A stretch of 64,000 nt of DNA from Longimicrobiales bacterium. GTDB lineage: Bacteria > Gemmatimonadota > Gemmatimonadetes > Longimicrobiales > RSA9. Both the position numbers and the translations under genes were made by a program. Below the pieces are notes generated by a model, which searched no databases, was not told the origin of the DNA, and saw nothing but the letters and a program-made list of their open reading frames with translations. Position 1 is the first letter of the stretch. Each line of letters starts with the position of its first letter. Shown in pieces: positions 10,689-59,041 of the stretch. The stretch covers positions 71,308 to 135,307 of the forward strand of contig JAWODW010000037.1 of NCBI GenBank assembly GCA_046483065.1. Direction: 5' to 3'.

Positions 10689-11102
10689 TCAGACGGCTAC
10701 CGGCACCTCCTGCTCAATCCGAACCGCCACCTCGGAACCCGTCACCAGCGTGTTGTGGGCGGGACAGCTCTTCGCCACCCGCTCCAGGACCTCCGAATAC
10801 TCCTCAGGGATCGCCTCCTGAAGGATCACCCGGATGTCGAACTTGCCGATCCGGCCCGGGTTCCGGGCACCGATCTGCTCCACCTCCACCCGCATGCCCT
10901 CGTACGGCAACCCCCGCGTCTCACAGAACTGCTGCACATACAGTGCTACACACGTGCCCACCGACGCCCCCATCAGCTCCAGCGGCATGGGACCCTCATC
11001 GTTCCCCACCGCCTTCGGCTGATCCACGATCACCCGGTGCCCCCGGATATCCGTCGCGAACTTCAACCCACCCTCGTGGGTCACCACCATTGGCTGTGCC
11101 AT
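10689..11102 (-). CDS. OsmC/Ohr-family peroxiredoxin-like protein
   Basis: 137 aa with the OsmC pattern (GPMPLELMGASVGTCVALY .. VAKSCPAHNTL) and two conserved Cys. SD ggaggt upstream. Confidence 0.8.
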   Translation of the reverse strand: MAQPMVVTHEGGLKFATDIRGHRVIVDQPKAVGNDEGPMPLELMGASVGTCVALYVQQFCETRGLPYEGMRVEVEQIGARNPGRIGKFDIRVILQEAIPEEYSEVLERVAKSCPAHNTLVTGSEVAVRIEQEVPVAV

Positions 11103-11197
11103 TGTCAGACCTCCGTGTTTATTACTAGTCGATTATATAGTCTGACATAACATACACGCTGTGGGGCCCCCGGTACAGGGGGAGGGCGTAGAGCGAT

Positions 11198-12385: not shown

Positions 12386-12680
12386 CCTCTGCCTCGCTCC
12401 TGCTCCTGTTCGTGTCGGTCCGAAACCTCGCCGTGGATCGGCCGGGCGGCAAGCCGTCGACCCCAGCGGCCGGGGCTCGTCCCCGCCATCGAGCCCCGCC
12501 CACAGCCCCAGTTCCGTCGTAGCCCGTCAACGCCGCGTAGGGGGTTCCCCCACACCCGGTTGACGGCTGTAGTACATTCCTCTACAGTTGAATAGTAAAC
12601 GGGTTACGGAGGCCTGGACATCCCTGGGCTCGGAATCGGTAGACAGAACCACGAACAGACAACGGACGGGAAGAGGTTCC

Positions 12681-15070: not shown

Positions 15071-16594
15071 TCACGGCCGCGACCCGGCCGCCTCGGCTTC
15101 CGGCGTGGCCCCGGCGACGGCCGCCCGCCGTTCCGGGGTGGCCGCCACCAGGATCAGCGTAGCGGCCACGGCCGACGTGAGGCACCACGCGCAGCTCGCC
15201 CCTATGACGAACGGCTCGAGGAACGTGAGGTAGATAGAAAAGCCAGTGGCACCGAGCGCCATCCACCAGGTGGCGCTCCGCGCCGCGAACCGGGCCTCCG
15301 GGACGAGCCGGCCGGCCGCCCACGTCGCCAGGAGGACGGCGTACCCCACCACCCCCAGCACGCCGATGGGCACGCCCAGCAGCCGGGCGTACGGGCTCTG
15401 CTGCACGATGTTGCAGTTCCCCACCGGGCCGCACACGGCATCCGCACCCGTGACCTCCACCACGGCCAGGTACGCGGCTACGCCCAGCCCCACCACCGCC
15501 AGGGCGGGGATAGCCCACACCGGCGGAGACGGGATCCGAATCCGACCGGCGAGGTCGCCGAGGACCAGGAGGAGCACGGCCAGCATGACGATCAGCACCG
15601 CGATGGCGAATCCGTTGCCGGCCGGGTCGAGCATGAGCCGCTGCCGTACCGAAAGCTCGTGGACCAGCGACATCCGTCCGTCGGCGTCCAGGGCGCCCGC
15701 AAGTAGCGAATCCTCCGCCGTGACCCGGGACTCCGGCCCCTCTACGGGCTCCGGGCGCTCCGCCGGGTCCTCCAGCTCCCCACGCGTCGGGCCCGAGCCC
15801 GCGTCTTCTTCTGGCGCGGTATCCGCGTGCTCCGGCTGCGAGTCCCGAGTTTCGTCGGGCAGCACTTCCGGGCCGACCTCTGCGTCGGCCGGTGGGACCG
15901 CTGCATCCGGCTCCGCCGCCGCGGATTCCGGCGCCGGGTCGGACGCGGAGTCCCCGGGCGGCTCATCGGCTCCGGGCGCCTGCGCGTCAGCTTCTTCCGG
16001 GCTCTGCGGGGCCTCCTGATCCGCTGTGGTCTCGCGGGCCGTATCCGCGCCGGCTGTATCCGTCGCGGCGGTCTCGGCGCCTGTCGCCTCCCCGGACGTT
16101 GCCACCGCCGACTGGGGGATCACCCCCTGCGCGGCCAGCGCCTGCCGGATCAGGGGGACCGGAGGCCAGTCGATACCGGAGCCAGCCAGCGCGCTGTCGG
16201 CGATGTCCGGCAGCAGCCCCGGGATCTCGATGGAGCCGACGAGTAGCCTGGAGCCGACCAGAAGGGCCGGCACGCCGGCCCGTTCCCGGGGCACGGCCAG
16301 CGCTTCGACCGTGGCCCGGTAGAGCTGCTGGCCGCCGGGCGTGGCGGTATTGACGCTGACGATCTGGAGCCCGTCGCCGTAGCGGCTCAGGATCGGCGGG
16401 AGGGTCTCGGTCATGACCTCCCGGCAGTGGGAACAGGTCGGCGAGTAGAAGAGGACGCCGTGGACCACGGGCGCCTCCTGTGTCACGGACTCCTCCTCCG
16501 TCGGCGGCGCCTCCTGCGCCGCCGCCTCCTGGGCCCCGGCAAGTGCCGGGGTCATCAGCAGGAGCATACCCCACCAACGGACACAGCCCTTCAT
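15071..16594 (-). CDS. thioredoxin-like domain fused N-terminally to a vitamin K epoxide reductase (VKOR) membrane domain
   Basis: Signal peptide, then a Trx-like CxxC (FYSPTCSHC), then an acidic A/E/P/D/T linker of about 170 aa. Next come 5 TM segments with the VKOR loop Cys pair (VCGPVGNC) and the TM CxxC (SCAWC). Confidence 0.8.
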   Translation of the reverse strand: MKGCVRWWGMLLLMTPALAGAQEAAAQEAPPTEEESVTQEAPVVHGVLFYSPTCSHCREVMTETLPPILSRYGDGLQIVSVNTATPGGQQLYRATVEALAVPRERAGVPALLVGSRLLVGSIEIPGLLPDIADSALAGSGIDWPPVPLIRQALAAQGVIPQSAVATSGEATGAETAATDTAGADTARETTADQEAPQSPEEADAQAPGADEPPGDSASDPAPESAAAEPDAAVPPADAEVGPEVLPDETRDSQPEHADTAPEEDAGSGPTRGELEDPAERPEPVEGPESRVTAEDSLLAGALDADGRMSLVHELSVRQRLMLDPAGNGFAIAVLIVMLAVLLLVLGDLAGRIRIPSPPVWAIPALAVVGLGVAAYLAVVEVTGADAVCGPVGNCNIVQQSPYARLLGVPIGVLGVVGYAVLLATWAAGRLVPEARFAARSATWWMALGATGFSIYLTFLEPFVIGASCAWCLTSAVAATLILVAATPERRAAVAGATPEAEAAGSRP

Positions 16595-31032: not shown

Positions 31033-31077
31033 TACGGGCCGGAAGCAACGCAGACAACGCCCGCAGAGAGACCGCCC

Positions 31078-32046
31078 GTGCTGACCACCTTTCTCGCCCT
31101 CGAGATCCCGTACCCGTTCATCGACCCGGTGCTCCTCGACCTGCCGGGGCCGCTCTCGGTCCGATGGTACGGGCTCATGTACCTGGTGGGGTTCGCCTTC
31201 GCCTACTACGCGCTGAGCCGCCTCACGGAATGGGGATTCCTCGAGCTCGAGAAGGAGAAGGTCGGCGACTTCATCGGATACTTGGTGCTCGGCGTCATCC
31301 TCGGCGGCCGGCTCGGCTACATCCTCTTCTACGCACTCGACGACTACATCCGCGACCCGCTCCTGACGCTCCAGATCTGGCGGGGCGGCCTCTCGTTCCA
31401 CGGCGGGCTGATCGGCGTGATCGTCACCGCGGCCCTCTTCGCACGCGCGCATGGCATCCGGTTCTCCCGGCTCCTGGACAGCCTGGCCGCCGCCGTGCCC
31501 GTCGGGATCTTCTTCGTCCGGATGGCGAATTTCGTCAACGGCGAGCTCTACGGTCGAGTCGCCGACGCCGACGTGCCGTGGGCGATCCGGTTCCCCACCG
31601 ACCCCGTGGCACTCCGCCTCATGGACATCGGGCCGGGCTCCATTCAGGCCCGGGAGGACGCGATCCTCGCCGCCCACGAGAGCGGCCTCTGGGACGCGAT
31701 CCGGGACCAGGTCCCGCTCCGCCACCCGTCCCAGGTCTACGAGGCTCTCGGCGAGGGACTCCTGGTCGGGGCGGTCCTCTGGACGGTGCTCATCGTCGCC
31801 CGCCGACGGCAGAAGTGGCCGCCGGCGGGCGCCATGGCCGGGCTCTTCTTCATCGGCTACGGTGGGGTCCGCACCTTTGTCGAGCTCTTCCGTCAGCCCG
31901 ACGCCCAGTTCCGGGGCCCCGACGACCCGCTGGGCACGGTCCTCGGTCCGCTCACCATGGGCCAGACCCTCAGCCTCTTCATGGTGCTGGTCGGGATTGC
32001 GGGGCTGGTCTGGGCGTTCCGCCGGGAGCGCGGGCAGGCGGCGTAA
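31078..32046 (+). CDS. lgt: prolipoprotein diacylglyceryl transferase
   Basis: GTG start. Lgt pattern (VRWYGLMYLVGF .. IWRGGLSFHGGLIG .. RHPSQVYEAL). Confidence 0.9.
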   Translation: MLTTFLALEIPYPFIDPVLLDLPGPLSVRWYGLMYLVGFAFAYYALSRLTEWGFLELEKEKVGDFIGYLVLGVILGGRLGYILFYALDDYIRDPLLTLQIWRGGLSFHGGLIGVIVTAALFARAHGIRFSRLLDSLAAAVPVGIFFVRMANFVNGELYGRVADADVPWAIRFPTDPVALRLMDIGPGSIQAREDAILAAHESGLWDAIRDQVPLRHPSQVYEALGEGLLVGAVLWTVLIVARRRQKWPPAGAMAGLFFIGYGGVRTFVELFRQPDAQFRGPDDPLGTVLGPLTMGQTLSLFMVLVGIAGLVWAFRRERGQAA

Positions 32047-36023: not shown

Positions 36024-37343
36024 TCACGGGACCCGTGCGGCGGACGGGGTCTGGTCCGCGGGCTCGCCCGTCTCCACGGGGTTCGCCGGGTCGCTGCTCC
36101 ACTCGAACCAGCCGCCGTCGAACACGGCCGCCCGGGGCCAGCCGAGCAGCCACGCGTTGAAGAACGCCTCGCTGCCCCGCCAGCCCGTGCCGCAGTAGAA
36201 GGCGTTCCGCTTCTCCGGCGTCACACCCACGCTCCGCCACGACGCGGCCACCTCCCCGTACTCGCGGGTGGTGTGATCCAGGTTCCGGTAGTTCTCCATG
36301 TGGTACGCGTCACTGCCGCAGTTGCCGAACACCGAGCCGGGGATCCGCCCGGTCTTCTCGATGTAGTTGTACCCGCTCACCTCGCCGATGTACTCGGGCC
36401 AGCTCCGGACGCTCACCAGGTTGCCGTCCTCCGACGCCAGGAGCTCCCGGGCCCCGGGCACGTCCACGGCCAGCTCCGGTGCGCCCGGGACCTCGATGCC
36501 GAACTCGGCGGCCGGCACGGGCACCTCCTCCTCGGTGCTCGTGGCGAGCCCGGCGTCGAGCCACGACTGGAGCCCCCCGTTCAAGACCTTCACGTCCTTC
36601 ACGCCCGCCCACAGCATGATGAACGCGCAGCGGAACGCCGCCAGCTGACCCGCGCTGCTGCCGGGGAACGGGTCGCTGTTGTCCGGGAAGGAGAACCGAC
36701 CGTACAGCACCACCGTGGTGTCCGCCGTGATCCCCAGCGCCAGCAGCGCGTCCCGCACCTCCGCCGGTGACCGCCGGTTCCACGTCTCCGGCGACTCCAG
36801 CAGCGTGGTCTCGAGGCTCACCGCGCCGGGGATGTGGCCCGCGGCGTAGTCGTCGTGGTTCCGGTAATGCGCATGGCACACCACCACCTCGCCGCCGGTG
36901 TGCTCCGGGGCCCGGCCATCGGTGAGGAGACCGTCCAGCCACTCCGGCGGGACCAGGTGGGTGTAGCGGGGCAGCCGGTCCAGCGGCAGCGCCTCGTCCG
37001 TGCACCACTCGTCGTCGAGCCCGTGATAGACCTGCACGTCCTCGTACCCCGCCCGGCGGAACTGACTCGCCACATCCTCCGTCTCGCCCTCGTCGTGTCC
37101 GTAGACCACCACCGGGTCCCCGGGACGGAGCCCCTTCTCCCGCACGATCTCGATCCAGTCCAGGTAGCCGCTCCACTTGAACGGCAGCGCCCGGGCGCCC
37201 GGGAGGTGTCCGCCCCGGGGCTCGCCCCGGAGCCGCCAGCCGTTGTAGGCGTGCATGGGCCGCACGTCCACCAGCTGCGTGCGCGGGTCCTCCAGTCGAT
37301 GGCGCAGCTCGGACGTGCTGATCTGATCGGGTACCTGATCCAC
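36024..37343 (-). CDS. multi-rhodanese-domain sulfurtransferase (three rhodanese repeats)
   Basis: GTG at 37343 lies 7 nt after GGAGGA. The upstream part of track ORF 36024..38213 overlaps the flavoprotein gene and is rejected. Active-site loop FYCGTGWRGSE in the last repeat. Confidence 0.75.
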   Translation of the reverse strand: MDQVPDQISTSELRHRLEDPRTQLVDVRPMHAYNGWRLRGEPRGGHLPGARALPFKWSGYLDWIEIVREKGLRPGDPVVVYGHDEGETEDVASQFRRAGYEDVQVYHGLDDEWCTDEALPLDRLPRYTHLVPPEWLDGLLTDGRAPEHTGGEVVVCHAHYRNHDDYAAGHIPGAVSLETTLLESPETWNRRSPAEVRDALLALGITADTTVVLYGRFSFPDNSDPFPGSSAGQLAAFRCAFIMLWAGVKDVKVLNGGLQSWLDAGLATSTEEEVPVPAAEFGIEVPGAPELAVDVPGARELLASEDGNLVSVRSWPEYIGEVSGYNYIEKTGRIPGSVFGNCGSDAYHMENYRNLDHTTREYGEVAASWRSVGVTPEKRNAFYCGTGWRGSEAFFNAWLLGWPRAAVFDGGWFEWSSDPANPVETGEPADQTPSAARVP

Positions 37344-37429
37344 GAAGCGTTCCTCCGGGTCCGATGAAGAGTCGAAAACGTACGGGCCGCGGTACGGCGT
37401 TGCGAATTCCGGGCCGTACCGCGGCGTCG

Positions 37430-38179: not shown

Positions 38180-38357
38180 GGTGCTCCTCCGTGGAGATGG
38201 GCCCCGTCCACACCTGTCCCGGCGCGCGCGGGGGCGTCGCGTGATTCTGTGATTATACGGCCTGGCGCCCCGGGGCGTGAAACTCCCCCGGGAACCTGGC
38301 GCTCCATGGATCTGTTGGGTTCTCGAACGCACACCTCACCGGGGGCACCGTGCCCGA

Positions 38358-38386
38358 TTGGGTGTTTCCTTCTGACATGCTATAAT
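38358..38386 (+). promoter_or_regulatory. sigma70-like promoter TTGGGT-17-TATAAT ending 6 nt before the ATG (leaderless transcript suggested)
   Basis: A perfect TATAAT at 38381-38386 in a ~70% GC context. The ATG is at 38393. Confidence 0.45.
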
Positions 38387-38392
38387 CCGTCC

Positions 38393-39007
38393 ATGCGACG
38401 ACGAGATCCGACCCGCCTGCTCCTCTCCGGCCTCGTCCTGGCCGCCGCGTTCACGGCGGCGTGCGACGCGCCGAGCCCGGAGCTCGGCCCCGCCGACGGC
38501 GCAGACCTGCCCCCCATCGACACCGGCCGCGTGGCCGTGGGCGATACGGCACCCGACTTCACCCTCGAAGACCGCCACGGTGAGCCCGTCACCCTCTCGG
38601 AGCTCCGGGAACGACGCATCGTCCTGGTCTTCTACCGGGGCCACTGGTGACCGTACTGCGCCGCTCAGCTCGGCGAGCTGAAAGACCTCCTGACCGAAGC
38701 ACAGCGGGAGTCCACCCGCATCGTGGCCGTCTCCATCGATGGCCCGGAGCAAATCGAGCAGATGCGCCGGCGAGTGGCCGATGAGCAGGACACCGCGCCA
38801 CCCGACTACCTGTTCCTCTCGGATCCCGGGCACCGGGTCATCGACCGGTACGGGCTCCGGAACCCTGACGATCCGCGGGGTATCCCCCACCCCACCACGT
38901 TCGTCCTCGACCGCGACGGCGTGGTCCGCTGGAAGTTCGTGGAGACCGACTACCGCGTGCGTCCCACCAACGAGATGATCCTGGACGCCCTCGGGAAACT
39001 GGAATAG
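38393..39007 (+). CDS. peroxiredoxin-like (AhpC/TSA redoxin) lipoprotein with in-frame TGA at the catalytic Cys position (candidate selenocysteine, U-x-x-C)
   Basis: Track ORFs 38249..38650 and 38723..39007 share one frame, and the only stop between them is TGA at 38648-38650. Joined, they read VLVFYRGHW-TGA-PYCAAQLGELKDL. Lipobox AAFTAAC. Confidence 0.6.
38665..38681 (+). other. SECIS-like hairpin downstream of the in-frame TGA
   Basis: tcagctc-ggc-gagctga forms a 7-bp perfect stem with an apical loop containing GG. The loop starts 24 nt from the U of UGA. Confidence 0.4.
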
Positions 39008-39070
39008 TTCTTCCAGCCCCACGGCCGAGCACTCACAAACTCTCATCCGAACACAGCACGAGCCCCTGTC

Positions 39071-41349: not shown

Positions 41350-42525
41350 CTACCGGCGCGCCGTCGCCACCTTGCGCCCCTCGGCCGCAGCCGGCGGGCG
41401 GACCTGCCGCCCGGACCGCCGCGCGCAGACCGCCGTGGGCGTGGCCGCCACCAGGATCAGCGTCATGATGATCGCGGAATTGATGCACCACATGCACGTG
41501 GCACCGATGACGAACGGCTCCAGGAACGTCAGGTAGATGGAGAAGGCGACCCCGACCACAGCCATGCCCCAGACCGCGAGCGCCGTCCGGCCCCGGTCGA
41601 GCCATCCTGCCCGACCGGCCACCCAGAGCCCCCCGAGCAGCAGGTACCCCGCCAGGCCCAGCACACCCACCGACACGCCGGCAATGGACGCGTACGGACT
41701 GAGCTGCACCCGGTTGCAGTCGCCCACCGGACCGCAGACCGCCTCCGATCCCGTCACCTCCACGAACGCCAGATAGGCCGCGATGCCGGCACCCGCCGTC
41801 GCCAGCACCGGGATCGCCCACGCAGGCCACTCGGCCGGCAGCCGGCGAGGCCGGACCAGCGTCCGCACGGCCAGCACCAGCACCAGCGCCATGCCGATCA
41901 GCACGACCACCGCAATGGCGTTGCCCGCCGGGTCCCGCATGAAACGCTCCGAGAGGGAGCTCTGCCCTGAATCACCGCCGGCGCCGAGTACGTGAACCGC
42001 CGGGGCGGCCCCCGCTCCACCATCCCCCGCCAGCATCCACCCCTCGATCTCCACCGCGGGGCCTTCCGCGATCCCCTGCACGGACAGGTACGCCCGGATC
42101 GCGCGGATCGGTGGCCAGTCCACTCCGGCCCCGTCCAGCCCCTCCGCCACGATGTCCGGCAGCTGTGACGGGATCTCCCAGGAACCCACAAGGACCCGGT
42201 CACCCACCACCAGCGCCGGCACGCCCAGCCGCTCCCGGGGCAGCTGGAAATGCTCCGCCACGGCCCGGTACAGCGTCTGACCCTGACGCGTGTCCACGTT
42301 CACCGCCACGATCCGCAGCGCCTCACCGTATCGCTCCAGCAGCGGAGGGAGGTGGTCCTCCATCACGTCATGACAGTGTGGGCACTCGGGCGAATAGAAC
42401 AGCACCGCCCGCACCTGGACCTCAGGGCCCTGCGCCACGTCCACCGACACGGCCGGACCGGGGGGCGCGGGGGCCACCGCCCCGAGTAGCGCCACCGTCA
42501 GCAGCTGCCACGCTCCGTACATCAC
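41350..42525 (-). CDS. thioredoxin-like domain fused N-terminally to a VKOR membrane domain (paralog of 15071..16594)
   Basis: FYSPECPHC, then VCGPVGDC and TCMWC. Collinear with the other copy but with a short linker. Confidence 0.8.
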   Translation of the reverse strand: MMYGAWQLLTVALLGAVAPAPPGPAVSVDVAQGPEVQVRAVLFYSPECPHCHDVMEDHLPPLLERYGEALRIVAVNVDTRQGQTLYRAVAEHFQLPRERLGVPALVVGDRVLVGSWEIPSQLPDIVAEGLDGAGVDWPPIRAIRAYLSVQGIAEGPAVEIEGWMLAGDGGAGAAPAVHVLGAGGDSGQSSLSERFMRDPAGNAIAVVVLIGMALVLVLAVRTLVRPRRLPAEWPAWAIPVLATAGAGIAAYLAFVEVTGSEAVCGPVGDCNRVQLSPYASIAGVSVGVLGLAGYLLLGGLWVAGRAGWLDRGRTALAVWGMAVVGVAFSIYLTFLEPFVIGATCMWCINSAIIMTLILVAATPTAVCARRSGRQVRPPAAAEGRKVATARR

Positions 42526-42763: not shown

Positions 42764-43141
42764 GTGGACATGGACGACTTGGGCCGGATCTTCAAGGCGC
42801 TCTCCGATGAGACGCGGCTCACCATCATGGGGCTGATCTTCGAGCACGGGTGCCTGTGCGTGTGCGAGGTTGAGCAGATCCTGGGGATCACCCAGTCGAA
42901 GGCGTCGCGGCACCTGCGCTACCTGCGGGACGCGGGCGTGCTGCAGGACGAGCGCGACGGCGTGACAGTGAACTACCGCGTGCCCCGGGATGCGGGCCCG
43001 GAGCTGTCTGCCATCCTGATGCTGCTGCGGGGGCTGCTGGCCGGCCGCCCCATCCCGGACGCCCGGCAGGCGCTGGTCCAGATCCGGGCGGCCAGGGCCG
43101 AAGGTCGCCCGGCCGACTCCGTGGAGCCGGTAATGGCGTGA
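42764..43141 (+). CDS. arsR: ArsR-family metalloid-responsive repressor
   Basis: HTH with a CVC site (EHGCLCVCEVEQILG). GTG at 42764 or ATG at 42770. Confidence 0.85.
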   Translation: MDMDDLGRIFKALSDETRLTIMGLIFEHGCLCVCEVEQILGITQSKASRHLRYLRDAGVLQDERDGVTVNYRVPRDAGPELSAILMLLRGLLAGRPIPDARQALVQIRAARAEGRPADSVEPVMA

Positions 43142-44568
43142 GCGGCGGTCGAGGGGGCGAGGCGGTTCGTGCGGCGGAGGGCCCACCGGAGGGTCCGGCC
43201 GAGCCGGCGGGGCTGGGGAGCCGGATGGTGGCGTGGTGGCGTCGTCGTCGCGAGGAGCCCGGAGCCACGGACTGGGGGTCGGAGTGGAAACCGCTGGCGT
43301 GGATCGCCGGGGTCTTCCTGGTCTTCTACTTCCTGCCGGTGGGCAACGCCCGGTTCGACGGTGCGGTCACGGAGGCCCTGGCCCTCACGCAGTGGTACGC
43401 GCAGGAGCACGTGCTGCTCTGCCTGATCCCGGCCTTCTTCATCGCCGGCGCCATCTCGGTCTTCCTGAGCGAGCAGGCGGTGCTGAAGTACCTGGGGCCC
43501 CGGGCGCCGAAGCCCATGGCGTACGGCGTGGCGTCGGTCTCCGGGACGCTGCTGGCGGTCTGCTCGTGCACGGTGCTACCGCTCTTCGGCGGGATCTACG
43601 CCAACGGCGCCGGCCTGGGCCCCGCGTCGGCGTTCCTGTACTCGGGCCCGGCCATCAACGTGCTGGCCATCGTGCTCACGGCCAACGTACTGGGTCTCGA
43701 GCTCGGCGTGGCGCGGGCGGTGGGGGCCATTGTGTTCGCGCTGGTGGTCGGGCTCCTGATGCACCTCATCTTCCGGCGCTCCGAGATGGAGCGGTCGGAC
43801 AACTGGATGGTGGGTCCCGAGCCGGAGGAAACCAGCCGACCTCTCTGGCAGACGGCCACGTTCTTCGGCGCCATGGTGGCCGTGCTGGTCTTCGCCAACT
43901 GGGGCCGGCCGGACGCCGCGGAGGGTTTCTGGTACGGCGTCTACGCGGCCAAGTGGAAGCTGACGGCCGCGGCGGCCGCCGTGATGGCCGTGGCGCTGGT
44001 CCGGTGGATCGGGATGAGCGTGTGGGAGGTCGGGGCGACGGCGGTCGTCACGGCGGGCCTGGCAGTCCTCTTCCCCCAGGAGCCGCTGATCCCGTTCGCC
44101 GCGGCCACCGTCGGACTGTCGCTTGCCGCCAGCACGAGCGGCGGTGAGGCGGGGGAGTGGTTCAACGCGTCGTGGGGGTTCGCCAAGCAGATCTTCCCGC
44201 TCCTCTTCATCGGGATCCTTGCCGCGGGGCTGCTCCTGGGGCGGCCCGGCCATGAGGGGCTGATCCCGTCGGCGTGGGTGGCGGAGGCCGTGGGCGGCAA
44301 CTCGCTGGGCGCGAACCTGTTCGCGTCGGTGGCGGGCGCGTTCATGTACTTCGCCACGCTCACCGAGGTGCCGATCCTCCAGGGGCTCATGGGCTCCGGG
44401 ATGGGCGACGGCCCGGCGCTCACGCTCCTGCTGGCGGGCCCCGCCGTCTCGCTCCCGAGCATCCTGGTGATCCGGAGCTTCATGGGCACGAAGAAGACGG
44501 CGGTCTTCCTGGCGCTCACGGTGGTAATGGCCACCACGGCCGGGATGATCTACGGCGCGATCACATGA
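43138..44568 (+). CDS. permease of the YraQ/ArsP-like family (PF03773-type)
   Basis: Polytopic, with a CSC motif (LLAVCSCTVLPLF). ATGA-type overlap with arsR. The exact start is uncertain because the N-terminal 30 aa are non-membrane. Confidence 0.7.
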   Translation: MSGGRGGEAVRAAEGPPEGPAEPAGLGSRMVAWWRRRREEPGATDWGSEWKPLAWIAGVFLVFYFLPVGNARFDGAVTEALALTQWYAQEHVLLCLIPAFFIAGAISVFLSEQAVLKYLGPRAPKPMAYGVASVSGTLLAVCSCTVLPLFGGIYANGAGLGPASAFLYSGPAINVLAIVLTANVLGLELGVARAVGAIVFALVVGLLMHLIFRRSEMERSDNWMVGPEPEETSRPLWQTATFFGAMVAVLVFANWGRPDAAEGFWYGVYAAKWKLTAAAAAVMAVALVRWIGMSVWEVGATAVVTAGLAVLFPQEPLIPFAAATVGLSLAASTSGGEAGEWFNASWGFAKQIFPLLFIGILAAGLLLGRPGHEGLIPSAWVAEAVGGNSLGANLFASVAGAFMYFATLTEVPILQGLMGSGMGDGPALTLLLAGPAVSLPSILVIRSFMGTKKTAVFLALTVVMATTAGMIYGAIT

Positions 44569-44614
44569 TCATGGACGGCAGGAACTCGTGAACCGAACCT
44601 GAAGGGATGAGACC

Positions 44615-44860
44615 ATGCAGATCAAAGTGTACGGCCCCGGCTGCGCCAACTGCCGGAAGCTGGAGGAGAACGCGAGGGAGGCCGTCGAGAGCCTCGGCGT
44701 GACCGCCGAGATCGAGAAGGTCGAGGACATGAAAGGCATGGCCGCGGCCGGCGTGATGCGCACGCCCGCATTGAGTGTCAACGGGGAGCTGATCCTCCAC
44801 GGCAAGGTCGCGCCGCCCCGCTACATCGCGGATCGGCTGCGGGAGATCGCGGCGCCGTAA
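44615..44860 (+). CDS. small thioredoxin-family protein (redox-active disulfide protein 2 type)
   Basis: 81 aa, MQIKVYGPGCANCRKLEE with a CxxC. This protein typically partners the preceding permease family. Confidence 0.8.
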   Translation: MQIKVYGPGCANCRKLEENAREAVESLGVTAEIEKVEDMKGMAAAGVMRTPALSVNGELILHGKVAPPRYIADRLREIAAP

Positions 44861-44900
44861 CGAGGCCGGGCCGACAGGTACCGCCCCTCCCGGCCGGGGC

Positions 44901-46016
44901 CTACGGCTGCGGCTTCGCCCCCGCCGGCACCGCGCAGTTCGAGACCTCCTCGATCTCCGCCGCGCTGTCCGGGAAGTACTTCCGCTTCCACCACAGCGCC
45001 ACGTTCACCAGCCCGATGAGCACGGGCACCTCCACCAGCGGCCCGATGACGGCCGCGAACGCCGCGCCGTGGGCGATCCCGAACGTGCCCACCGCCACGG
45101 CAATCGCCAGCTCGAAGTTGTTCGACGCCGCCGTGAACGAGAGTGTGGCCGTCTGCGGGTACGTGGCCCCCACCGCCCGGCTCATGAAGAACGTGATGGC
45201 GAACATGGCCAGGAAGTAGATCAGGAGCGGGATCGCCACCAGCACCACCTGCGACGGCTGCTCGATGATCGCCTCGCCCTGGATCGAGAACATGACCACG
45301 ATGGTGAAGAGCAGCGCGATCAGCGTCAGCGGGCTGATCTTCGGGATGAACCGTTCGTGGTACCACGTCTTCCCCCTCGCCTTCACCAGCACGAACCGGG
45401 TCAGCATCCCCGCCAGGAACGGGATGCCCAGGTAGATGAACACGCTCTCGGCGATCTGGCCCATGGTGATGTCCACCACCGTCCCCTCGAGCCCCAGCCA
45501 CCCGGGCACAACGGTGATGAAGACCCAGGCGTACACCGAGTAGAACAGGACCTGGAAGATGGAGTTGAAGGCGACGAGCCCGGCGGCGTACTCGTTGTCG
45601 CCCTCCGCCAGCTCGTTCCAGACGATCACCATGGCAATGCACCGCGCCAGCCCGATGAGGATCAGCCCCACCATGAGCTCCGGGTGGTCCCGGAGGAAGA
45701 GGACCGCCAGCCCGAACATGAGCAGCGGGCCGATGACCCAGTTCTGGATCAGCGAGAGCCCCAGGACCTTCCAGTCCCGGAACACGTCGCCCAGCTCCTC
45801 GTAGCGCACCTTCGCCAGGGGCGGGTACATCATGAGGATCAGACCGATGGCGATGGGGATCGACGTGGTCCCCACGTGCGTCGCCTCGTTGATGGCCGTG
45901 ATCGGCTCCTGCCACAGGTAGCCCAGCCCCACACCCAACGCCATGGCCAGGAAGATCCACGCGGTCAGGTACCGGTCCAGGAACGACATCCGCCGCGCCA
46001 CACTCCGCTGTGTCAT
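44901..46016 (-). CDS. acr3: arsenite efflux transporter, ACR3 family
   Basis: ATG at 46016 ([22 protein letters not shown]) forms an ATGA overlap with the upstream stop. ACR3 pattern including [11 protein letters not shown]. Confidence 0.9.
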
Positions 46017-50098: not shown

Positions 50099-50656
50099 CT
50101 AGCCCCCGGCGCGGGCCAGCCAGTCGTCGTAGGCGGCCGCACCGTGGTCGATCACCTCCTGGGCGCCCTCCCTCGAGACCGTGCTCCCTTCATCATCGAT
50201 GATGACGAGCGTCGGGATCCACTCGACGTCGTACCGGTTGAGCAGCGCGCTGCTGTGGCTGCCCCGCCAGGGTACCGCCAGCCACGACATGCCCGCCTCC
50301 GCCATATACGAGAGCATGGACGCCTCGCCGGGGTCCAGGCTCACGTAGACCACCTCGAACGAGCGCCCCTCCTCCTCGAGCTGGCCGTATGCATCGACCA
50401 GCATCGGCGTGAAGCTCGCGCACGCCGGGCACTGAGAGGAGCCGAAGTAGATCCCGATGAGCGCCGCACCCTCGACCGCCTCGATCCCCTCCACGCTCCC
50501 ATCCGCCCGGAGCAGCGTGTCGCCGAAGAGTTCCAGCAGGGAAGCCGGCGACGACTCCGTGGGTGAGTCGTCGCGGCACCCCGCAGCCAGCCCGGAGCAC
50601 AGCCCCGTCGCCACGAGCATGGTCATGATCGAGGCCCGGACACCCGTTCGTTGCAT
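50099..50656 (-). CDS. thioredoxin-fold (nucleoredoxin/TlpA-like) lipoprotein
   Basis: Lipobox LAAGC. CxxC in IYFGSSQCPACASFTP. Pattern WLAVPW .. IPTLVIID. Confidence 0.7.
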   Translation of the reverse strand: MQRTGVRASIMTMLVATGLCSGLAAGCRDDSPTESSPASLLELFGDTLLRADGSVEGIEAVEGAALIGIYFGSSQCPACASFTPMLVDAYGQLEEEGRSFEVVYVSLDPGEASMLSYMAEAGMSWLAVPWRGSHSSALLNRYDVEWIPTLVIIDDEGSTVSREGAQEVIDHGAAAYDDWLARAGG

Positions 50657-50710
50657 ACCGTCAAAGGTCGACCGCAGGGGACCATCGGGCAAGCCGACGG
50701 CACCGGCACG

Positions 50711-56896: not shown

Positions 56897-57151
56897 CCAA
56901 TCAACTCCCTTTATCGACCCGGCCCCGGATCCACCGGCCGTAACCTCACCTCTTCGGCCGGCGGCTCCGGATCCTCGCCGTTCACCTGTTTCCGGTCTTG
57001 TTGACCATACAGTAATACACGGCCGGTGAAGCAGGCGTGAGGCCGGCATGAAGGCTTTTTCACCCGGCACCTCGCGGCCGTCCGCGCGCTGAATCGACCC
57101 GGGGTTGCCCCAGCCGGCGCACTGATACATTATTCCAGCAAACGATGGAAC

Positions 57152-57859
57152 ATGGAGGCCGCCATGGAGTTCGGGGACGCAAAGAAGGAACTGCTGAGCC
57201 AGTTCGCGCGGATCGGGAAGGCGGTGTCGAGCCCCGCCCGCCTGGAGCTGCTGGACCTGCTGGCCCAGGGCGAGAAGCCCGTGGAGATGCTGGCCGAACA
57301 GGCCGGGCTCTCGGTGACGAACACGAGCAACCACCTGAAGGAGCTGCGGAACGCGGCGCTGGTGGCCACGCGGAAGGAGGGACTCTACGTCTACTACCGT
57401 CTGGCGGATCCGGCGGTGTACGAGTTCCTGCGCTGCCTGGAGGACATCGCGGCGAGTCAGCTGGCGGAGGTTCGGGAGATCGTGAACGACTACTTCCGGG
57501 AGCCGGAGGCGCTGGAGCCGGTCGAGGCCGGCGATCTGCTGGAACGGCTCCGGGCGGACGACGTGATGGTGTTGGACGTCCGTCCCCAGGACGAGTACGC
57601 GGCGGGCCACATCCCCGGGGCGCTGTCGATCCCGGCGGGCGAGCTGGAGCGACGGCTCTCGGAGCTGCCCCGGGAGCGGGAGGTGGTGGCGTACTGCCGG
57701 GGCCCGTACTGCGTGCTGGCGCTGCAGGCGGTGGAGGTGCTGCGGGCGGCCGGCTACCGGGCGCGTCGCATGGAGATCGGGCTGCCGGACTGGCGCGCCG
57801 GCGGCCTGGCCGTGGAGGGAACCGCGCCGACAACCGACGAAGAGAAAGAGACGGAGTGA
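57152..57859 (+). CDS. ArsR-family HTH fused to a rhodanese domain
   Basis: HTH (SSPARLELLDLLAQGEKPVEMLAEQAGLSVTNTSNHLKEL). Rhodanese domain with the active loop AYCRGPYC. Confidence 0.8.
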   Translation: MEAAMEFGDAKKELLSQFARIGKAVSSPARLELLDLLAQGEKPVEMLAEQAGLSVTNTSNHLKELRNAALVATRKEGLYVYYRLADPAVYEFLRCLEDIAASQLAEVREIVNDYFREPEALEPVEAGDLLERLRADDVMVLDVRPQDEYAAGHIPGALSIPAGELERRLSELPREREVVAYCRGPYCVLALQAVEVLRAAGYRARRMEIGLPDWRAGGLAVEGTAPTTDEEKETE

Positions 57860-58209
57860 TGCGGACACTGTTGATCATGAATGACCCGCCCTACGGCACG
57901 GAGCGGGCGTACAACGGACTGCGGCTGGCGAACTCGCTGGCCAGACGGGAAGGCCAGGAGGCGAAGGTGTTCCTCATGGGCGACGGGGCCTCGTGCGCGA
58001 AGTCCGGCCAGACGCTCCCCAAGGGCTACTACAGCATGGAGCGGATGCTCAAGGGCTTCCACGGGAAGGGCGGCGAGACGGGCGTGTGCGGGACGTGCAT
58101 GGATGCCCGGGGTCTGACCGATGACGAGCTGGTGGAGGGCGCGCGCCGGAGCACGCTCGACGAGCTCACGGACTGGACCGTATGGGCCGACAAGGTCGTG
58201 GTATTCTGA
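57859..58209 (+). CDS. DsrE/DsrF (YchN)-like sulfur-relay family protein
   Basis: 116 aa, MRTLLIMNDPPYGTERAYNGLRLA .. VCGTCMDARG. The start overlaps the upstream stop by 1 nt (TGATG). Confidence 0.7.
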   Translation: MRTLLIMNDPPYGTERAYNGLRLANSLARREGQEAKVFLMGDGASCAKSGQTLPKGYYSMERMLKGFHGKGGETGVCGTCMDARGLTDDELVEGARRSTLDELTDWTVWADKVVVF

Positions 58210-58210
58210 G

Positions 58211-59041
58211 ATGCAGGCCCGGCTGGAGCCGGACGGGTACACGGCCTGGTTCGGGAGCGAGCTGGGCGAGCGGGTCTGGCGGGACGAGCGCAGGGCGCTG
58301 AACCACGCCCTGGGTGAGGTGGCCGGCCGCACCGTCCTGGACGTGGGCGCCGGCGACGGCCGCCTGGCCCGGGAGCTGGCCGCCCGGGGAGCGCGCGTGG
58401 TCGCCCTCGACCGATCGGCGGACATGCTGGCGGCCGCGGGTGCGGGAGACGGACCTGGATCCGGGCTGACGCGGGTCCGGGCGGACGCCGTGGCGCTGCC
58501 GTTCCCCGACGGCTCGTTCGATCGGGTCATCGCCGTGACGGTGCTCTGCTTCGCGGACCGACCCGGCGAGATGATCCGCGAGATGGCCCGGGTCGCGAGG
58601 CCCGGCGGACGGGTGGTCCTGGGCGAGCTGGGGCGCTGGAGCACCTGGTCGCTCGCCCGCCGGGTCCGGGGCTGGTTGGGCGACGAGCTGTGGGCGACGG
58701 CCCGGTTCCGTACGGCACCGGAGCTCCGGCAGCTCCTGGCGCGGGCCGGGCTCCGGCCCGGGCCGGTGCACGGAGCGGTCTTCTACCCGCGGAGCGTGTA
58801 CGCCGCCCGGCTCCTGGGCCCCGTGGACCGCCGGTTCGGACGGCACACCACCATCGGCGCAGCGTTCCTCGCCGTCGCCGGTGTCAACGTCGACGAGGGG
58901 TCGGCCGGGGGATATTCACGCAGCGGTACTACCTCGCCGGGGTGCGGGGAGGGTTCGGGACGGTCACGATCGGCCGCCATTCCACCGCCTACAAGATGGC
59001 CGGCCTGCGGCTGGATCCTTTCTATGACACGTCCACGCTGA
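58211..59041 (+). CDS. class I SAM-dependent methyltransferase; family-like sequence ends near 58882 and the ORF then reads through into porin-remnant DNA
   Basis: SAM motif VLDVGAGDGRLA, PFPDGSFD, RPGGRVVL, ending TIGAAFLAVAG. The last ~50 codons are low-complexity read-through. Confidence 0.65.
   Translation: MQARLEPDGYTAWFGSELGERVWRDERRALNHALGEVAGRTVLDVGAGDGRLARELAARGARVVALDRSADMLAAAGAGDGPGSGLTRVRADAVALPFPDGSFDRVIAVTVLCFADRPGEMIREMARVARPGGRVVLGELGRWSTWSLARRVRGWLGDELWATARFRTAPELRQLLARAGLRPGPVHGAVFYPRSVYAARLLGPVDRRFGRHTTIGAAFLAVAGVNVDEGSAGGYSRSGTTSPGCGEGSGRSRSAAIPPPTRWPACGWILSMTRPR

What the first reader, a model, noticed from the sequence alone, without database searches (positions are those of the whole stretch)
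38393..39007. In-frame TGA at the catalytic-Cys position of a peroxiredoxin-like lipoprotein: candidate selenoprotein split by ORF calling
ORFs 38249..38650 and 38723..39007 are in the same frame. The only stop between them is TGA at 38648-38650. Read through from the ATG at 38393, the product is a 204-codon AhpC/TSA (redoxin)-type protein with a lipoprotein signal (AAFTAAC). It carries the motif VLVFYRGHW-[TGA]-PYCAAQL, so the TGA sits exactly where this family has the first Cys of its WCPxC redox motif (U-x-x-C). Both halves look family-like (PDFTLEDRHGEPVTLSEL upstream; RIVAVSIDGPEQ and HPTTFVLDRDGVVRW downstream), which argues against an old, decaying pseudogene. A perfect hairpin tCAGCTC-ggc-GAGCTGa (38665-38681) with a GG-containing apical loop lies about 24 nt from the UGA. 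That is within the spacing described for bacterial SECIS elements. A perfect TATAAT (38381-38386) ends 6 nt before the ATG, suggesting a leaderless mRNA.
Basis: partly seen in the sequence, partly recalled or inferred. Interest (0 to 1): 0.8.

Follow-up and report, generated by a model that had tools for sequence, protein, structure and literature searches.

The report
Selenocysteine Prx-like lipoprotein gene, real
The in-frame TGA is almost certainly a genuine selenocysteine codon in an exported peroxiredoxin-like redox protein of a Longimicrobiales bacterium, which makes it a new member of an already catalogued selenoprotein family rather than a broken gene.

Summary
Window 38393-39007 (+) is one 204-codon AhpC/TSA gene interrupted only by TGA at 38648-38650, giving a U-P-Y-C redox motif.

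The same TGA sits at the same codon in 31 distinct orthologues from genome contigs (8 phyla by MAG record title) and 57 from metagenomes. More distant homologues have TGC/TGT. Both halves are under purifying selection (dN/dS 0.13-0.54 in 29 of 30 comparisons; dS 0.7-2.7).

The hairpin at 38665-38681 meets the published bacterial SECIS model. It is present in every TGA form, and the Cys forms lack a conserved equivalent. It shows compensatory changes and frozen synonymous sites.

The window has no selA/B/D or tRNA-Sec. However, it comes from an NCBI Longimicrobiales MAG, and two other Longimicrobiales MAGs carry a Sec-type SelD about 2.1 kb from their TGA orthologue. Sec-type SelD is common in Gemmatimonadota, and one metagenome contig has tRNA-Sec 60 nt upstream of the orthologue.

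The gene belongs to the known "Prx-like thiol:disulfide oxidoreductase (PF00578, UxxC)" selenoprotein family. Verdict: a real selenoprotein gene, a new member of a known kind, of modest interest. The leaderless-mRNA idea is plausible but not conserved.

The parts
38381..38386 (+). Perfect TATAAT (-10-like box, preceded by TG one base upstream). It ends 6 nt before the ATG and there is no Shine-Dalgarno sequence between them. It may drive a leaderless or very short-leader transcript.
   Evidence: only 3 TATAAT in 64 kb against 0.52 expected, and two of them lie in this intergenic region; the scan found no -35 match on this strand; the feature is not conserved in orthologues.
38393..39007 (+). 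Complete coding sequence of the Prx-like selenoprotein: 204 codons including Sec86, plus a TAG stop at 39005-39007.
   Evidence: Pfam AhpC-TSA E 2.2e-31 spanning the TGA. dN/dS below 1 on both sides of the TGA.
38393..38464 (+). N-terminal export signal with a lipobox (MRRRDPTRLLLSGLVLAAAFTAA-C24). Cys24 (38462-38464) is the predicted lipidated first residue of the mature protein.
   Evidence: Read directly from the sequence. All 31 orthologues have an N-terminal signal and about 11 have a lipobox Cys. The lgt gene is present in the window at 31033-32046.
38648..38650 (+). UGA codon 86, read as selenocysteine.
   Evidence: The same codon is TGA in 31 unique genome-derived and 57 unique metagenome-derived orthologues, and TGC/TGT in more distant homologues. 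TGA is otherwise the commonest ordinary stop in this window: 23 of 37 confident ORFs.
38648..38659 (+). U-P-Y-C redox motif (codons 86-89). Sec86 is the thioredoxin-like N-terminal nucleophile, and Cys89 is at the position of the peroxidatic Cys of true Prx.
   Evidence: Alignment to A. pernix BCP 2cx3 and M. tuberculosis AhpE 1xvw. Invariant W-C/U-P-x-C in alignments A1 and A4.
38665..38681 (+). SECIS element: 7-bp stem TCAGCTC/GAGCTGA with apical loop GGC (38672-38674). It starts 14 nt after the UGA, and the loop begins 21 nt after it.
   Evidence: -8.6 kcal/mol. Meets all four criteria of the bSECIS model in PMC13188914. 94% of cells paired in 31 TGA forms against 65% in Cys forms. Synonymous sites are frozen in the stem. 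The loop is G-[G/U]-N in 31 of 31. Replicated in 57 of 57 metagenome TGA forms.

Best explanation
Window 38393-39007 encodes a single 204-residue selenoprotein of the Prx-like thiol:disulfide oxidoreductase family.

**Proposed mechanism**
1. During translation, the UGA at codon 86 is recoded as selenocysteine.
2. The 17-nt hairpin that begins 14 nt downstream (loop GGC, 21 nt from the UGA) acts as a bacterial SECIS. It recruits SelB-GTP-Sec-tRNA(Sec) to the ribosome so that Sec is inserted instead of termination.
3. The product carries an N-terminal lipoprotein signal. It is exported and anchored by Cys24 on the extracytoplasmic face of the membrane.
4. There, the U86-P-Y-C89 centre cycles between selenol/thiol and selenenylsulfide. 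It sits on a peroxiredoxin scaffold that has lost the Prx catalytic Pro, Thr and Arg.
5. The protein therefore works like a thioredoxin/TlpA-type reductant of disulfides (or of peroxide, sulfenic or selenium species), not like a classical peroxidase.

**Shown here**
- One gene with the TGA conserved at the same codon.
- Purifying selection on both sides of the TGA.
- An RNA-level constrained hairpin specific to the TGA forms.
- A Prx fold with a Trx-like motif.
- Export signals in all orthologues.
- Sec machinery in the same bacterial order.

**Inferred**
- Actual Sec insertion in this organism.
- Lipidation.
- The substrate and the redox partner.
For: **1. One gene.** Pfam AhpC-TSA spans the TGA.

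**2. The TGA is conserved.**
- It is at the same codon in orthologues of about 57-72% identity from independent assemblies, with intact flanks that carry synonymous differences.
- It is present in 31 unique genome-contig sequences whose MAG record titles span 8 phyla, and in 57 unique metagenome sequences.
- Cys (TGC/TGT) occupies the site in more distant homologues, which is the classic Sec/Cys pairing.

**3. Purifying selection.**
- dN/dS is 0.13-0.54 on both sides in 29 of 30 pairwise comparisons with the window (a single outlier at 0.81), at dS 0.7-2.7.
- The downstream frame is open for 115-126 codons in all 31.

**4. The hairpin is a SECIS.**
- It satisfies the published bSECIS model: loop 3-9 nt, stem 4-16 bp, G in the first two loop positions, 16-37 nt spacing and MFE at or below -7.5.
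- 94% of cells are paired in TGA forms, which 0 of 500 shuffles reach, and slid registers give 27-50%. The outer pair switches U-A to G-C in 6 sequences.
- The closest Cys forms are 65% paired, no better than shuffles.
- L040 encodes the same QLGEL peptide with stem-breaking codons.
- Leu, Glu and Gln codons inside the stem are essentially invariant, while neighbouring Leu codons have about 2 bits of entropy.
- The loop is G-[G/U]-N in 31 of 31, which restricts that residue to Gly/Val. Cys forms have S/K/A/R/G there.
- Replication: 57 of 57 TGA forms against 5 of 17 Cys forms carry a rule-compliant hairpin, Fisher p = 2.8e-10.

**5. Phylogeny.** In a quick NJ tree the window gene nests in the Sec clade. 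Cys forms are nested and derived, with an eroding hairpin in L090.

**6. Sec machinery in the lineage.**
- The window is from a Longimicrobiales MAG. Its transketolase is 100% identical to MFO7893175.1.
- Longimicrobiales MAG contigs L014 and L020 carry SelD about 2.1 kb from their TGA orthologue. TIGR00476 scores are 389 and 395 bits against a cut-off of 125. These SelD genes themselves have a TGA at the active site, SHGAG-U-ACK.
- About 110 of the 120 closest SelD relatives are the 325-aa post-TGA fragment, and the named ones are Gemmatimonadota.
- 11 of 11 loci checked (two distinct SelD proteins) have the TGA.
- L114 has tRNA-Sec 60 nt upstream of its TGA orthologue (ARAGORN; Rfam RF01852 at 58.9 bits against 47).

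**7. No codon reassignment.** TGA is the commonest normal stop in the window.

**8. Known family.** The family is catalogued as a selenoprotein family (PMC13188914, PMC9312934, PMC2398784, PMC1088965).
Against: - No selA, selB, selD or tRNA-Sec lies in the 64-kb window, and the rest of the source MAG could not be reached.
- No SelB or SelA was seen in any fetched locus.
- In its local GC-rich context the hairpin is not thermodynamically exceptional.
- It matches no Rfam SECIS family.
- No curated NCBIfam model reaches its cut-off.
- There is no experimental evidence of selenium incorporation for this clade.
Confidence: 0.92

Rival explanations
1. The UGA is decoded, but not as selenocysteine. 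It could be read by near-cognate read-through (Trp or Cys), or by a dedicated non-Sec suppressor or tRNA-Sec-like tRNA that inserts Cys or Ser. The hairpin would then act only as a read-through stimulator.
For: - Sec insertion itself was not observed.
- No SelB or SelA was found in any sequence held.
- UGA followed by C (30 of 31 forms) is, from general knowledge, a weak termination context.
Against: - The position is the Sec/Cys-exchangeable nucleophile of a UxxC motif in a catalogued selenoprotein family.
- The hairpin matches the SelB-type bSECIS consensus, including the G-[G/U] loop.
- The lineage encodes Sec-type SelD, which has no role without selenium chemistry.
- A bona fide tRNA-Sec sits next to an orthologue.
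- If Cys were wanted, a one-base change to TGC/TGT would do, and nested lineages have made exactly that change and then lost the hairpin.
Confidence: 0.04
2. Translation stops at the UGA. The locus would yield an 85-residue truncated lipoprotein, with or without a separately initiated C-terminal piece, so it is a functional split or truncated gene.
For: - Gene callers and public databases record the two halves separately, for example the 114-aa fragments P0091-P0115.
- In many orthologues an ATG or GTG lies 8 codons after the TGA.
Against: - In the window the first in-frame start after the TGA is a GTG 24 codons downstream, inside a conserved strand.
- The codons between the TGA and any restart (PYCAAQLGEL...) are conserved as protein. 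They include the invariant second Cys.
- An N-terminal fragment would lack both redox residues and most of the fold.
- This model does not explain the hairpin constraint specific to TGA forms.
Confidence: 0.02
3. Recent nonsense mutation (Cys to stop): a pseudogene in decay.
For: Cys-form homologues at about 65% identity exist (P0001-P0003).
Against: - The TGA is conserved across 88 distinct orthologous sequences and 8 phyla by record title.
- dN/dS is below 1 downstream of the TGA at near-saturated dS.
- The downstream frame is open to the homologous stop in all cases.
- The window gene's sister group is TGA-bearing.
Confidence: 0.01
4. Sequencing or assembly error created the TGA.
For: The source is a metagenome-assembled genome.
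Against: The identical codon appears in dozens of independent assemblies from different projects and technologies.
Confidence: 0.005

Closest known systems
Prx-like thiol:disulfide oxidoreductase selenoprotein family (PF00578, UxxC/UxxU). Listed as 'predicted with high confidence' in PMC13188914 and PMC9312934 (example WP_010940744.1). Called 'Prx-like protein' in the Sargasso Sea set (PMC1088965) and 'Prx-like 1' in GOS (225 Sec sequences, PMC2398784).
   Same: - AhpC/TSA domain.
- Sec at the first position of a thioredoxin-like UxxC motif in place of the TxxU of Sec-Prx.
- Abundant Cys homologues.
- A small SECIS hairpin with a G in the apical loop just downstream of the UGA.
   Different: - I could not align directly to the named reference sequence (no access by accession), so subfamily identity is inferred from the domain plus the motif.
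- This clade is exported and often lipidated.
- It is found in Gemmatimonadota/Longimicrobiales, and the papers I could search do not mention Sec use in that phylum.
Canonical peroxiredoxins of the BCP/PrxQ and AhpE type, including the Sec-containing Prx (PxxxTxxU) of Eubacterium acidaminophilum cited in PMC13188914.
   Same: - Same fold. The AF2 model of the closest Cys homologue superposes on AhpE and BCP with target-normalised TM 0.83-0.86 and rmsd 2.2 A.
- Best sequence matches in the PDB are 2cx3 and 1xvw.
- Cys89 sits at the peroxidatic Cys position.
   Different: - The Prx catalytic Pro is Arg82.
- The Thr/Ser is replaced by Sec86.
- The catalytic Arg aligns with Pro167, a Trx-like cis-Pro position.
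- Sec is 3 residues upstream of where Sec-Prx has it.
Extracytoplasmic TlpA/ResA/DsbE-type thiol:disulfide reductases.
   Same: - W-C-x-x-C-type motif.
- Export signal or membrane anchoring.
- Weaker sequence matches to ResA and TlpA.
- In the closest clade (L001, L007, L009) the gene neighbours CcdA/DsbD_TM and a TlpA-like gene.
   Different: - The overall fold and best matches are Prx-type, not TlpA-type.
- Gene context is not conserved elsewhere.
- It uses Sec instead of Cys.
E. coli fdhF/fdnG SECIS elements (the characterised bacterial SECIS).
   Same: - Lies inside the coding region immediately 3' of the UGA.
- Apical loop with G followed by G/U.
- Spacing within the 16-37 nt range of the consensus model.
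   Different: - Much smaller, a 7-bp stem with a 3-nt loop (or 6 bp with a 5-nt loop).
- No bulged U is evident.
- No primary-sequence resemblance, and no Rfam hit.

Membership tests
Prx-like thiol:disulfide oxidoreductase selenoprotein family (PF00578, UxxC) | AhpC/TSA (PF00578) domain | tested here: met
   E 2.2e-31, 108.8 bits against a cut-off of 26. The match covers residues 49-180 and spans the TGA.
Prx-like thiol:disulfide oxidoreductase selenoprotein family (PF00578, UxxC) | In-frame TGA at the first position of a U-x-x-C redox motif | tested here: met
   W-TGA-P-Y-C at 38648-38659.
Prx-like thiol:disulfide oxidoreductase selenoprotein family (PF00578, UxxC) | Cys-containing homologues whose Cys aligns with the TGA (Sec/Cys pair) | tested here: met
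   WCPYC in P0001-P0004, the Gemmatimonas clade, Pyrinomonadaceae, Chitinophaga and others.
Prx-like thiol:disulfide oxidoreductase selenoprotein family (PF00578, UxxC) | TGA-containing orthologues in other organisms, with coding constraint on both sides | tested here: met
   31 + 57 unique TGA forms; dN/dS 0.13-0.54 on both sides in 29 of 30 comparisons.
Prx-like thiol:disulfide oxidoreductase selenoprotein family (PF00578, UxxC) | Bacterial SECIS element downstream of the UGA (bSECIS consensus model, PMC13188914 Fig. 2A) | tested here: met
   7-bp stem, 3-nt loop GGC, 21 nt spacing, -8.6 kcal/mol. Conservation and covariation. Absent from Cys forms.
Prx-like thiol:disulfide oxidoreductase selenoprotein family (PF00578, UxxC) | Sec-decoding machinery (selA, selB, selC, selD) in the same genome | not testable with these tools
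   - None in the 64-kb window.
- The source MAG is not retrievable.
- Lineage-level support: Sec-type SelD on the same contig as the orthologue in Longimicrobiales L014 and L020, widespread Sec-type SelD in Gemmatimonadota, and tRNA-Sec next to the orthologue in L114.
Prx-like thiol:disulfide oxidoreductase selenoprotein family (PF00578, UxxC) | Selenium actually incorporated at the UGA position | not testable with these tools
   This needs 75Se labelling or mass spectrometry.
Canonical peroxiredoxin (Prx) | Prx/thioredoxin-fold scaffold | tested here: met
   model pLDDT 89.5. Best PDB matches are AhpE and BCP, TMt 0.83-0.86. The model is of the 65%-identical Cys homologue P0001, not the window protein itself.
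Canonical peroxiredoxin (Prx) | P-x-x-x-T/S-x-x-C peroxidatic motif | tested here: not met
   the window's FYRGHWUPYC aligns with FFPAAFSPVC (2cx3) and FFPLAFTGIC (1xvw). Pro becomes Arg82 and Thr/Ser becomes Sec86. Only the Cys is retained.
Canonical peroxiredoxin (Prx) | Conserved catalytic Arg before the beta-strand that follows the active-site loop | tested here: not met
   in the alignment to 2cx3, the Arg of ...AKRAVFIV... aligns with Pro167 of ...PHPTTFVL...
NCBIfam NF040769 SelL-related redox protein | Score at or above the curated cut-off (120 bits) | tested here: not met
   56 bits. No NCBIfam model reaches its cut-off for this protein.
Bacterial lipoprotein | Signal peptide ending in a lipobox with an invariant Cys | tested here: inconclusive
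   - MRRRDPTRLLLSGLVLAAAFTAA-C fits the broad lipobox rule as I recall it from PROSITE.
- No predictor was available.
- About 11 of 31 orthologues have an analogous Cys, and the others have an SPase-I-type signal.
- lgt is present in the window.
Leaderless mRNA | Promoter -10 box positioned so that transcription starts at or next to the start codon, with no Shine-Dalgarno sequence | tested here: inconclusive
   - TATAAT lies 6 nt before the ATG and is preceded by TG.
- There is no SD sequence.
- The scan found no -35.
- Many orthologues have GGAGG-type leaders.
- The transcription start has not been measured.

The most novel reading that the evidence does not exclude
In Longimicrobiales and related Gemmatimonadota, the exported Prx-like lipoprotein and a Sec-type SelD may form the core of a small selenoproteome. 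That selenoproteome would be kept in largely oxic, high-GC lineages.

- The two genes are sometimes physically linked (2.1 kb apart in L014 and L020), and in another lineage the orthologue is linked to tRNA-Sec (L114).
- The enzyme would be an extracytoplasmic selenoenzyme served by an unusually compact 17-nt SECIS. The RNA constraint of that SECIS dictates the protein sequence (Gly/Val only at residue 94).
- Its task may relate to periplasmic handling of sulfur, selenium or arsenic species, given the rhodanese, VKOR and ars-like genes around it in this window.
Probability: 0.2. Interest if true: 0.5.

Novelty: new member of a known kind. Interest (0 to 1): 0.3.

Why it matters
- **Annotation.** This gene and its many orthologues are stored in public protein sets as two meaningless fragments, for example the 114-aa 'redoxin domain-containing protein' entries. 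Sec-type SelD of the same phylum is stored as a 325-aa N-terminally truncated protein. No curated NCBIfam model captures the clade.
- **Biology.** The finding shows that Longimicrobiales/Gemmatimonadota, a widespread soil and marine phylum, decode UGA as Sec and export a selenoenzyme to the cell envelope. The papers I could search do not link this phylum with selenocysteine.
- **RNA element.** The clade offers a clean natural data set for a minimal bacterial SECIS: 88 distinct sequences with compensatory changes, and Cys-form controls that encode the same peptide.
- **Limits.** It does not change any concept, because the family and the mechanism are textbook.

Tried and rejected
- **Rfam.** A gathering-threshold scan of the window and a permissive scan of 38600-38760 gave no SECIS or tRNA-Sec hit. 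This is uninformative, because bacterial SECIS elements are not well covered.
- **Thermodynamic significance of the hairpin in context.** It is not significant. I dropped it as an argument and relied on comparative data.
- **Motif regexes for SelD, SelB and SelA** in the window and loci found nothing. The SelD regex missed real SelD genes because their active-site residue is itself a TGA.
- **Retrieving the source contig.** Exact look-ups of window proteins were not on record, so the remaining 75 kb of the 139,690-bp contig and the rest of the MAG could not be examined.
- **Is the gene already deposited as a protein?** The accession slot MFO7893180.1 lies between the neighbours. None of 9 fragment, X or C variants is in the collection, and 'U' is not accepted. 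This is unresolved.
- **Same-MAG link between SelD and the closest orthologues** (GCA_018678475.1, GCA_028279425.1). The SelD proteins I looked up came from other assemblies.
- **Conserved gene neighbourhood.** None exists beyond the closest clade. The small '+' ORFs between the Prx-like gene and SelD in L014 and L020 are probably shadows of minus-strand genes (compared with the gene calls).
- **A second selenoprotein gene in the window.** No convincing candidate was found.
- **Literature on Sec in Gemmatimonadota.** Nothing relevant turned up.
- **Pseudogene, sequencing error and split-gene readings** were considered and rejected, as set out under the rival explanations.
Full report
**1. Observation**

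- Two same-frame ORFs are separated by one TGA at 38648-38650 (codon 86).
- The context is VLVFYRGHW-TGA-PYCAAQL.
- The N-terminus MRRRDPTRLLLSGLVLAAAFTAAC is signal-like.
- A perfect 7-bp hairpin, TCAGCTC-GGC-GAGCTGA, lies at 38665-38681.
- TATAAT lies at 38381-38386, 6 nt before the ATG.

With Cys in place of the stop, the product matches Pfam AhpC-TSA across the junction (E 2.2e-31, residues 49-180).

From this sequence alone the hairpin is not decisive. The 17-mer folds at -8.6 kcal/mol (3 of 200 shuffles do as well). In its 43-81 nt context the region folds no better than shuffled 70%-GC sequence.

**2. The TGA is conserved, not accidental**

A protein search returned full-length Cys forms and about 20 clusters of 112-118-aa (mostly 114-aa) fragments. 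These fragments all start 8 codons after the position of our TGA.

Their contigs each have an AhpC-like N-terminal piece of about 82 aa in the same frame. The junction codon is TGA in every case...VFYRGHW-TGA-PWCASQL....

A scan of one genome per species gave 80 loci. In 42 unique sequences the codon is TGA, and 31 of these belong to the window's subfamily. Their MAG record titles name Gemmatimonadota (including Longimicrobiales), Acidobacteriota, Methylomirabilota/Rokubacteria, Deltaproteobacteria/Syntrophobacteraceae, Binatia, Verrucomicrobiota, Chloroflexota and Planctomycetota. In 38 more distant homologues the codon is TGC or TGT.

An independent metagenome scan added 57 unique TGA forms and 17 Cys forms.

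Pairwise dN/dS between the window gene and the 30 other TGA orthologues is 0.13-0.54 both upstream and downstream of the TGA in 29 comparisons (one outlier at 0.81). dS is 0.7-2.7 or saturated. The downstream frame stays open for 115-126 codons in all 31. A dead or truncated gene cannot produce this pattern.

TGA is otherwise the commonest ordinary stop codon in the window, in 23 of 37 confident ORFs. The codon is therefore not reassigned genome-wide.

**3. The hairpin behaves as a SECIS**

The published bacterial SECIS model (PMC13188914, Fig. 2A) sets four requirements. The window element meets all of them.

| Requirement | Model | Window element |
|---|---|---|
| Apical loop | 3-9 nt | 3 nt (GGC) |
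| Upper stem | 4-16 bp | 7 bp |
| Spacing from the UGA | 16-37 nt | 21 nt |
| MFE | at or below -7.5 kcal/mol | -8.6 kcal/mol |

The comparative evidence across the 31 in-register TGA forms is as follows.
- 94% of stem cells are paired. No shuffle out of 500 reaches this, and slid registers give 27-50%.
- The outer pair alternates U-A (19) and G-C (6).
- The closing pair shows C-G to G-C and C-G to U-A changes.
- The 14 closest Cys forms are 65% paired, indistinguishable from shuffles.

Synonymous choice is frozen inside the stem and free outside it.

| Site | Codon usage in the 31 TGA forms |
|---|---|
| Gln6 (stem) | CAG 31/31 |
| Leu7 (stem) | CTC 29/31 |
| Glu9 (stem) | GAG 23/23 |
| Leu10 (stem) | CTG 30/30 |
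| Next two Leu codons | 5-6 different codons each (about 2 bits) |
| Downstream Glu codons | about half GAA |
| Loop Gly, third base | free |

Loop position 1 is G in 31 of 31, and position 2 is G or T in 31 of 31. The encoded residue is therefore only Gly or Val in Sec forms, whereas Cys forms have S/K/A/R/G.

L040 (and L107) encode the same QLGEL peptide as the Sec forms but with CAA CTC GGT GAG CTT, which breaks the stem.

The Rokubacteria-type subfamily has a different hairpin, GCTCCAA-GGNC-TTGGAGC, at a similar distance. This shows turnover of the element with its function retained.

In the replication set a rule-compliant hairpin is present in 57 of 57 TGA forms and 5 of 17 Cys forms (Fisher p = 2.8e-10).

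**4. Evolutionary direction**

In a neighbour-joining tree the window gene sits inside a large Sec clade. Its sister group is the TGA-bearing L009/L001/L007.

Cys forms are nested within that clade: L090/P0001/P0002, L091 and the clade that includes cultured-genus Gemmatimonas contigs. This is consistent with Sec-to-Cys conversions.

In L090 the hairpin is eroding. One pair is lost, and the loop ACG lacks a leading G.

**5. Sec machinery**

The window has no tRNA, no Rfam family, and no SelA, SelB or SelD by motif or by Pfam/NCBIfam scans of essentially all ORFs.

The window's transketolase is 100% identical to MFO7893175.1, 'MAG: transketolase [Longimicrobiales bacterium]', on a 139,690-bp contig. 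Neighbouring genes match MFO7893179.1...181.1 and ...182.1. The rest of that MAG could not be fetched.

A local ARAGORN and phmmer scan of all 172 held sequences found three things.
- **tRNA-Sec next to an orthologue.** L114 has a tRNA-Sec (anticodon TCA) at 9843-9940, 60 nt upstream of its TGA orthologue. ARAGORN through the tool and Rfam RF01852 (58.9 bits against 47) both confirm it.
- **SelD next to the orthologue in the same order.** SelD lies about 2.1 kb downstream of the TGA orthologue in two Longimicrobiales MAG contigs, L014 and L020. TIGR00476 scores are 389 and 395 bits against a cut-off of 125.
- **These SelD genes are themselves Sec-type.** They are interrupted by a TGA at the active site...SHGAG-TGA-ACKLG..., compared with SHGAGCGCK in E. 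coli SelD as I recall it.

Using the L014 SelD as a query, about 110 of the 120 best relatives are 325-aa proteins that begin just after that TGA. The named ones are Gemmatimonadota or Gemmatimonadetes SelD. All 11 loci inspected (two distinct SelD proteins) have the TGA.

Sec-type SelD is a classical selenoprotein and makes sense only in a Sec-decoding cell. The order to which the window belongs therefore uses Sec.

I did not find selB or selA in any held sequence. Machinery in this particular MAG remains untested.

**6. What the protein is and how it probably works**

The best PDB sequence matches are BCP/PrxQ and AhpE peroxiredoxins, with weaker matches to ResA and TlpA.

An AlphaFold model of the closest Cys homologue, P0001 (65% identical; pLDDT 89.5), superposes best on AhpE and BCP. 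The target-normalised TM is 0.83-0.86 and the rmsd is 2.2 A.

The active site, however, is not Prx-like. In the alignments, FYRGHW-U-PYC lies over FFPAAF-S-PVC and FFPLAF-T-GIC.
- Sec86 replaces the Prx Thr/Ser.
- Cys89 is at the peroxidatic position.
- The Prx Pro is Arg82.
- The Prx catalytic Arg aligns with Pro167.

[quoted passage not shown] No NCBIfam model reaches its cut-off. The nearest are BCP-type thiol peroxidase, SelL-related redox protein (56 bits against 120) and ResA.

All orthologues have an N-terminal export signal. About 11 of 31 have a lipobox Cys like the window gene, and the rest have an SPase-I-type signal. The protein therefore acts outside the cytoplasm. lgt is in the window.

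Gene context is not conserved, except for CcdA/DsbD_TM plus a TlpA-like gene in the closest clade.

My reading is an envelope-anchored selenol/thiol oxidoreductase that cycles through a Sec86-Cys89 selenenylsulfide. Its substrate and electron donor are unknown and are inferred, not shown.

**7. Leaderless mRNA**

- Only three TATAAT hexamers occur in 64 kb (0.52 expected).
- Two lie in this 210-bp divergent intergenic region, one on each strand.
- The minus-strand copy has a -35-like box and faces the flavodoxin gene, which has a clear SD sequence.
- The plus-strand copy has an upstream TG, no SD sequence, and lies 6 nt from the ATG.
- Many orthologues have GGAGG-type leaders.

A leaderless transcript is plausible here, is untested, and is not a property of the family.

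**8. Comparison, novelty and verdict**

The element works like, and by the defining features I could test is a member of, the known Prx-like (UxxC) selenoprotein family. It is not a canonical peroxiredoxin, because that catalytic motif was tested and not met.

It is a new member of a known kind. The following points are modestly new.
- Sec use in Longimicrobiales/Gemmatimonadota, which is absent from the papers I could search.
- The compact and very well-sampled SECIS.
- The export of the selenoprotein.
- The systematic mis-annotation of this gene and of Sec-type SelD as fragments.

It is unresolved whether GenBank already annotates this exact gene as a selenoprotein. The accession slot ...180 exists, but its sequence was not retrievable.

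Confidence that this is a genuine Sec-encoding gene is about 0.92. Interest is 0.3.

Noticed in passing
L014 12609-13670; L020 12694-13755; also L172-L184: SelD genes of Longimicrobiales/Gemmatimonadota MAGs carry an in-frame TGA at the active site (SHG[A/T]G-U-ACKLG). In public protein sets they appear as 325-aa N-terminally truncated proteins, about 110 of the 120 closest relatives. SelD is convergent with lon in all these loci.
   Followed up: yes
L114 9843-9940: A tRNA-Sec gene (anticodon TCA; Rfam RF01852 at 58.9 bits) lies 60 nt upstream of a TGA-form Prx-like gene on a metagenome contig. By its Prx sequence the contig resembles the Udaeobacter-type orthologues.
   Followed up: partly
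L001 2471-3055; L007 5343-5921: A second, unrelated AhpC/TSA gene on the same contigs is also split by a conserved in-frame TGA (FFFRARTRG-TGA-T, a T-x-x-U arrangement like Sec-peroxiredoxin). A 6-bp hairpin GCGUAC/GUACGC has its loop starting 21 nt after the UGA. The gene lies next to recQ and a CcdA/TlpA pair.
   Followed up: partly
L033 minus strand near 14737; L102 (two motifs): Some contigs hold two TGA-containing Prx-like paralogues, for example SFYRGRW-TGA-PYCNAEL in a Rokubacteria MAG and IYRAHW-TGA-PYCKQQL in L102.
   Followed up: no
L056-L066, L070, L076, L142-L170 (subfamily with peptide AELQGLG): The Rokubacteria/Methylomirabilota-type subfamily uses a different SECIS sequence, GCTCCAA-GGNC-TTGGAGC, with the loop 24 nt after the UGA. 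The loop has the same G-G start, so the element has been replaced while position and loop rule were kept.
   Followed up: partly
window 38180-39070 (GenBank accession slot MFO7893180.1): Protein accessions of the flanking genes are ...179.1 and ...181.1, so one GenBank protein exists for this interval. No fragment, X-substituted or Cys-substituted version is in the searchable collection. No 100%-identical fragment appeared in the homology search either. It may be a U-containing full-length entry.
   Followed up: partly
window 38252-38257 (minus strand): A second perfect TATAAT with a -35-like TTCACG at 18-nt spacing faces the divergent flavodoxin/FMN-reductase gene (start 38179, with a GGAGGA Shine-Dalgarno sequence). 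The intergenic region therefore looks like a pair of back-to-back promoters.
   Followed up: partly
window 42874-46012 and 57041-59041: An arsenic/thiol-type cluster:
- an ArsP/SaoE-like permease (42874-44568)
- an MTH895/ArsE-type thioredoxin-like protein with CANC (44603-44860)
- a minus-strand ORF at about 44.9-46.0 kb that reads by eye like an ACR3-type arsenite carrier and has lower GC3 than its neighbours (not tested)
- further on, an ArsR-rhodanese fusion and a SAM methyltransferase
   Followed up: no
window 15071-16594 and 41350-42525 (both minus strand): Two large proteins with C-terminal VKOR domains. The window also has three rhodanese-domain proteins (12573-13952, 36024-37400, 57041-57859), an OsmC-like gene (10689-11132) directly preceded by the third TATAAT, and a Thioredoxin_8 protein with CPAC (50099-50710). 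The window is unusually rich in envelope thiol-redox and sulfur-transfer genes, and all of these are Cys forms.
   Followed up: no
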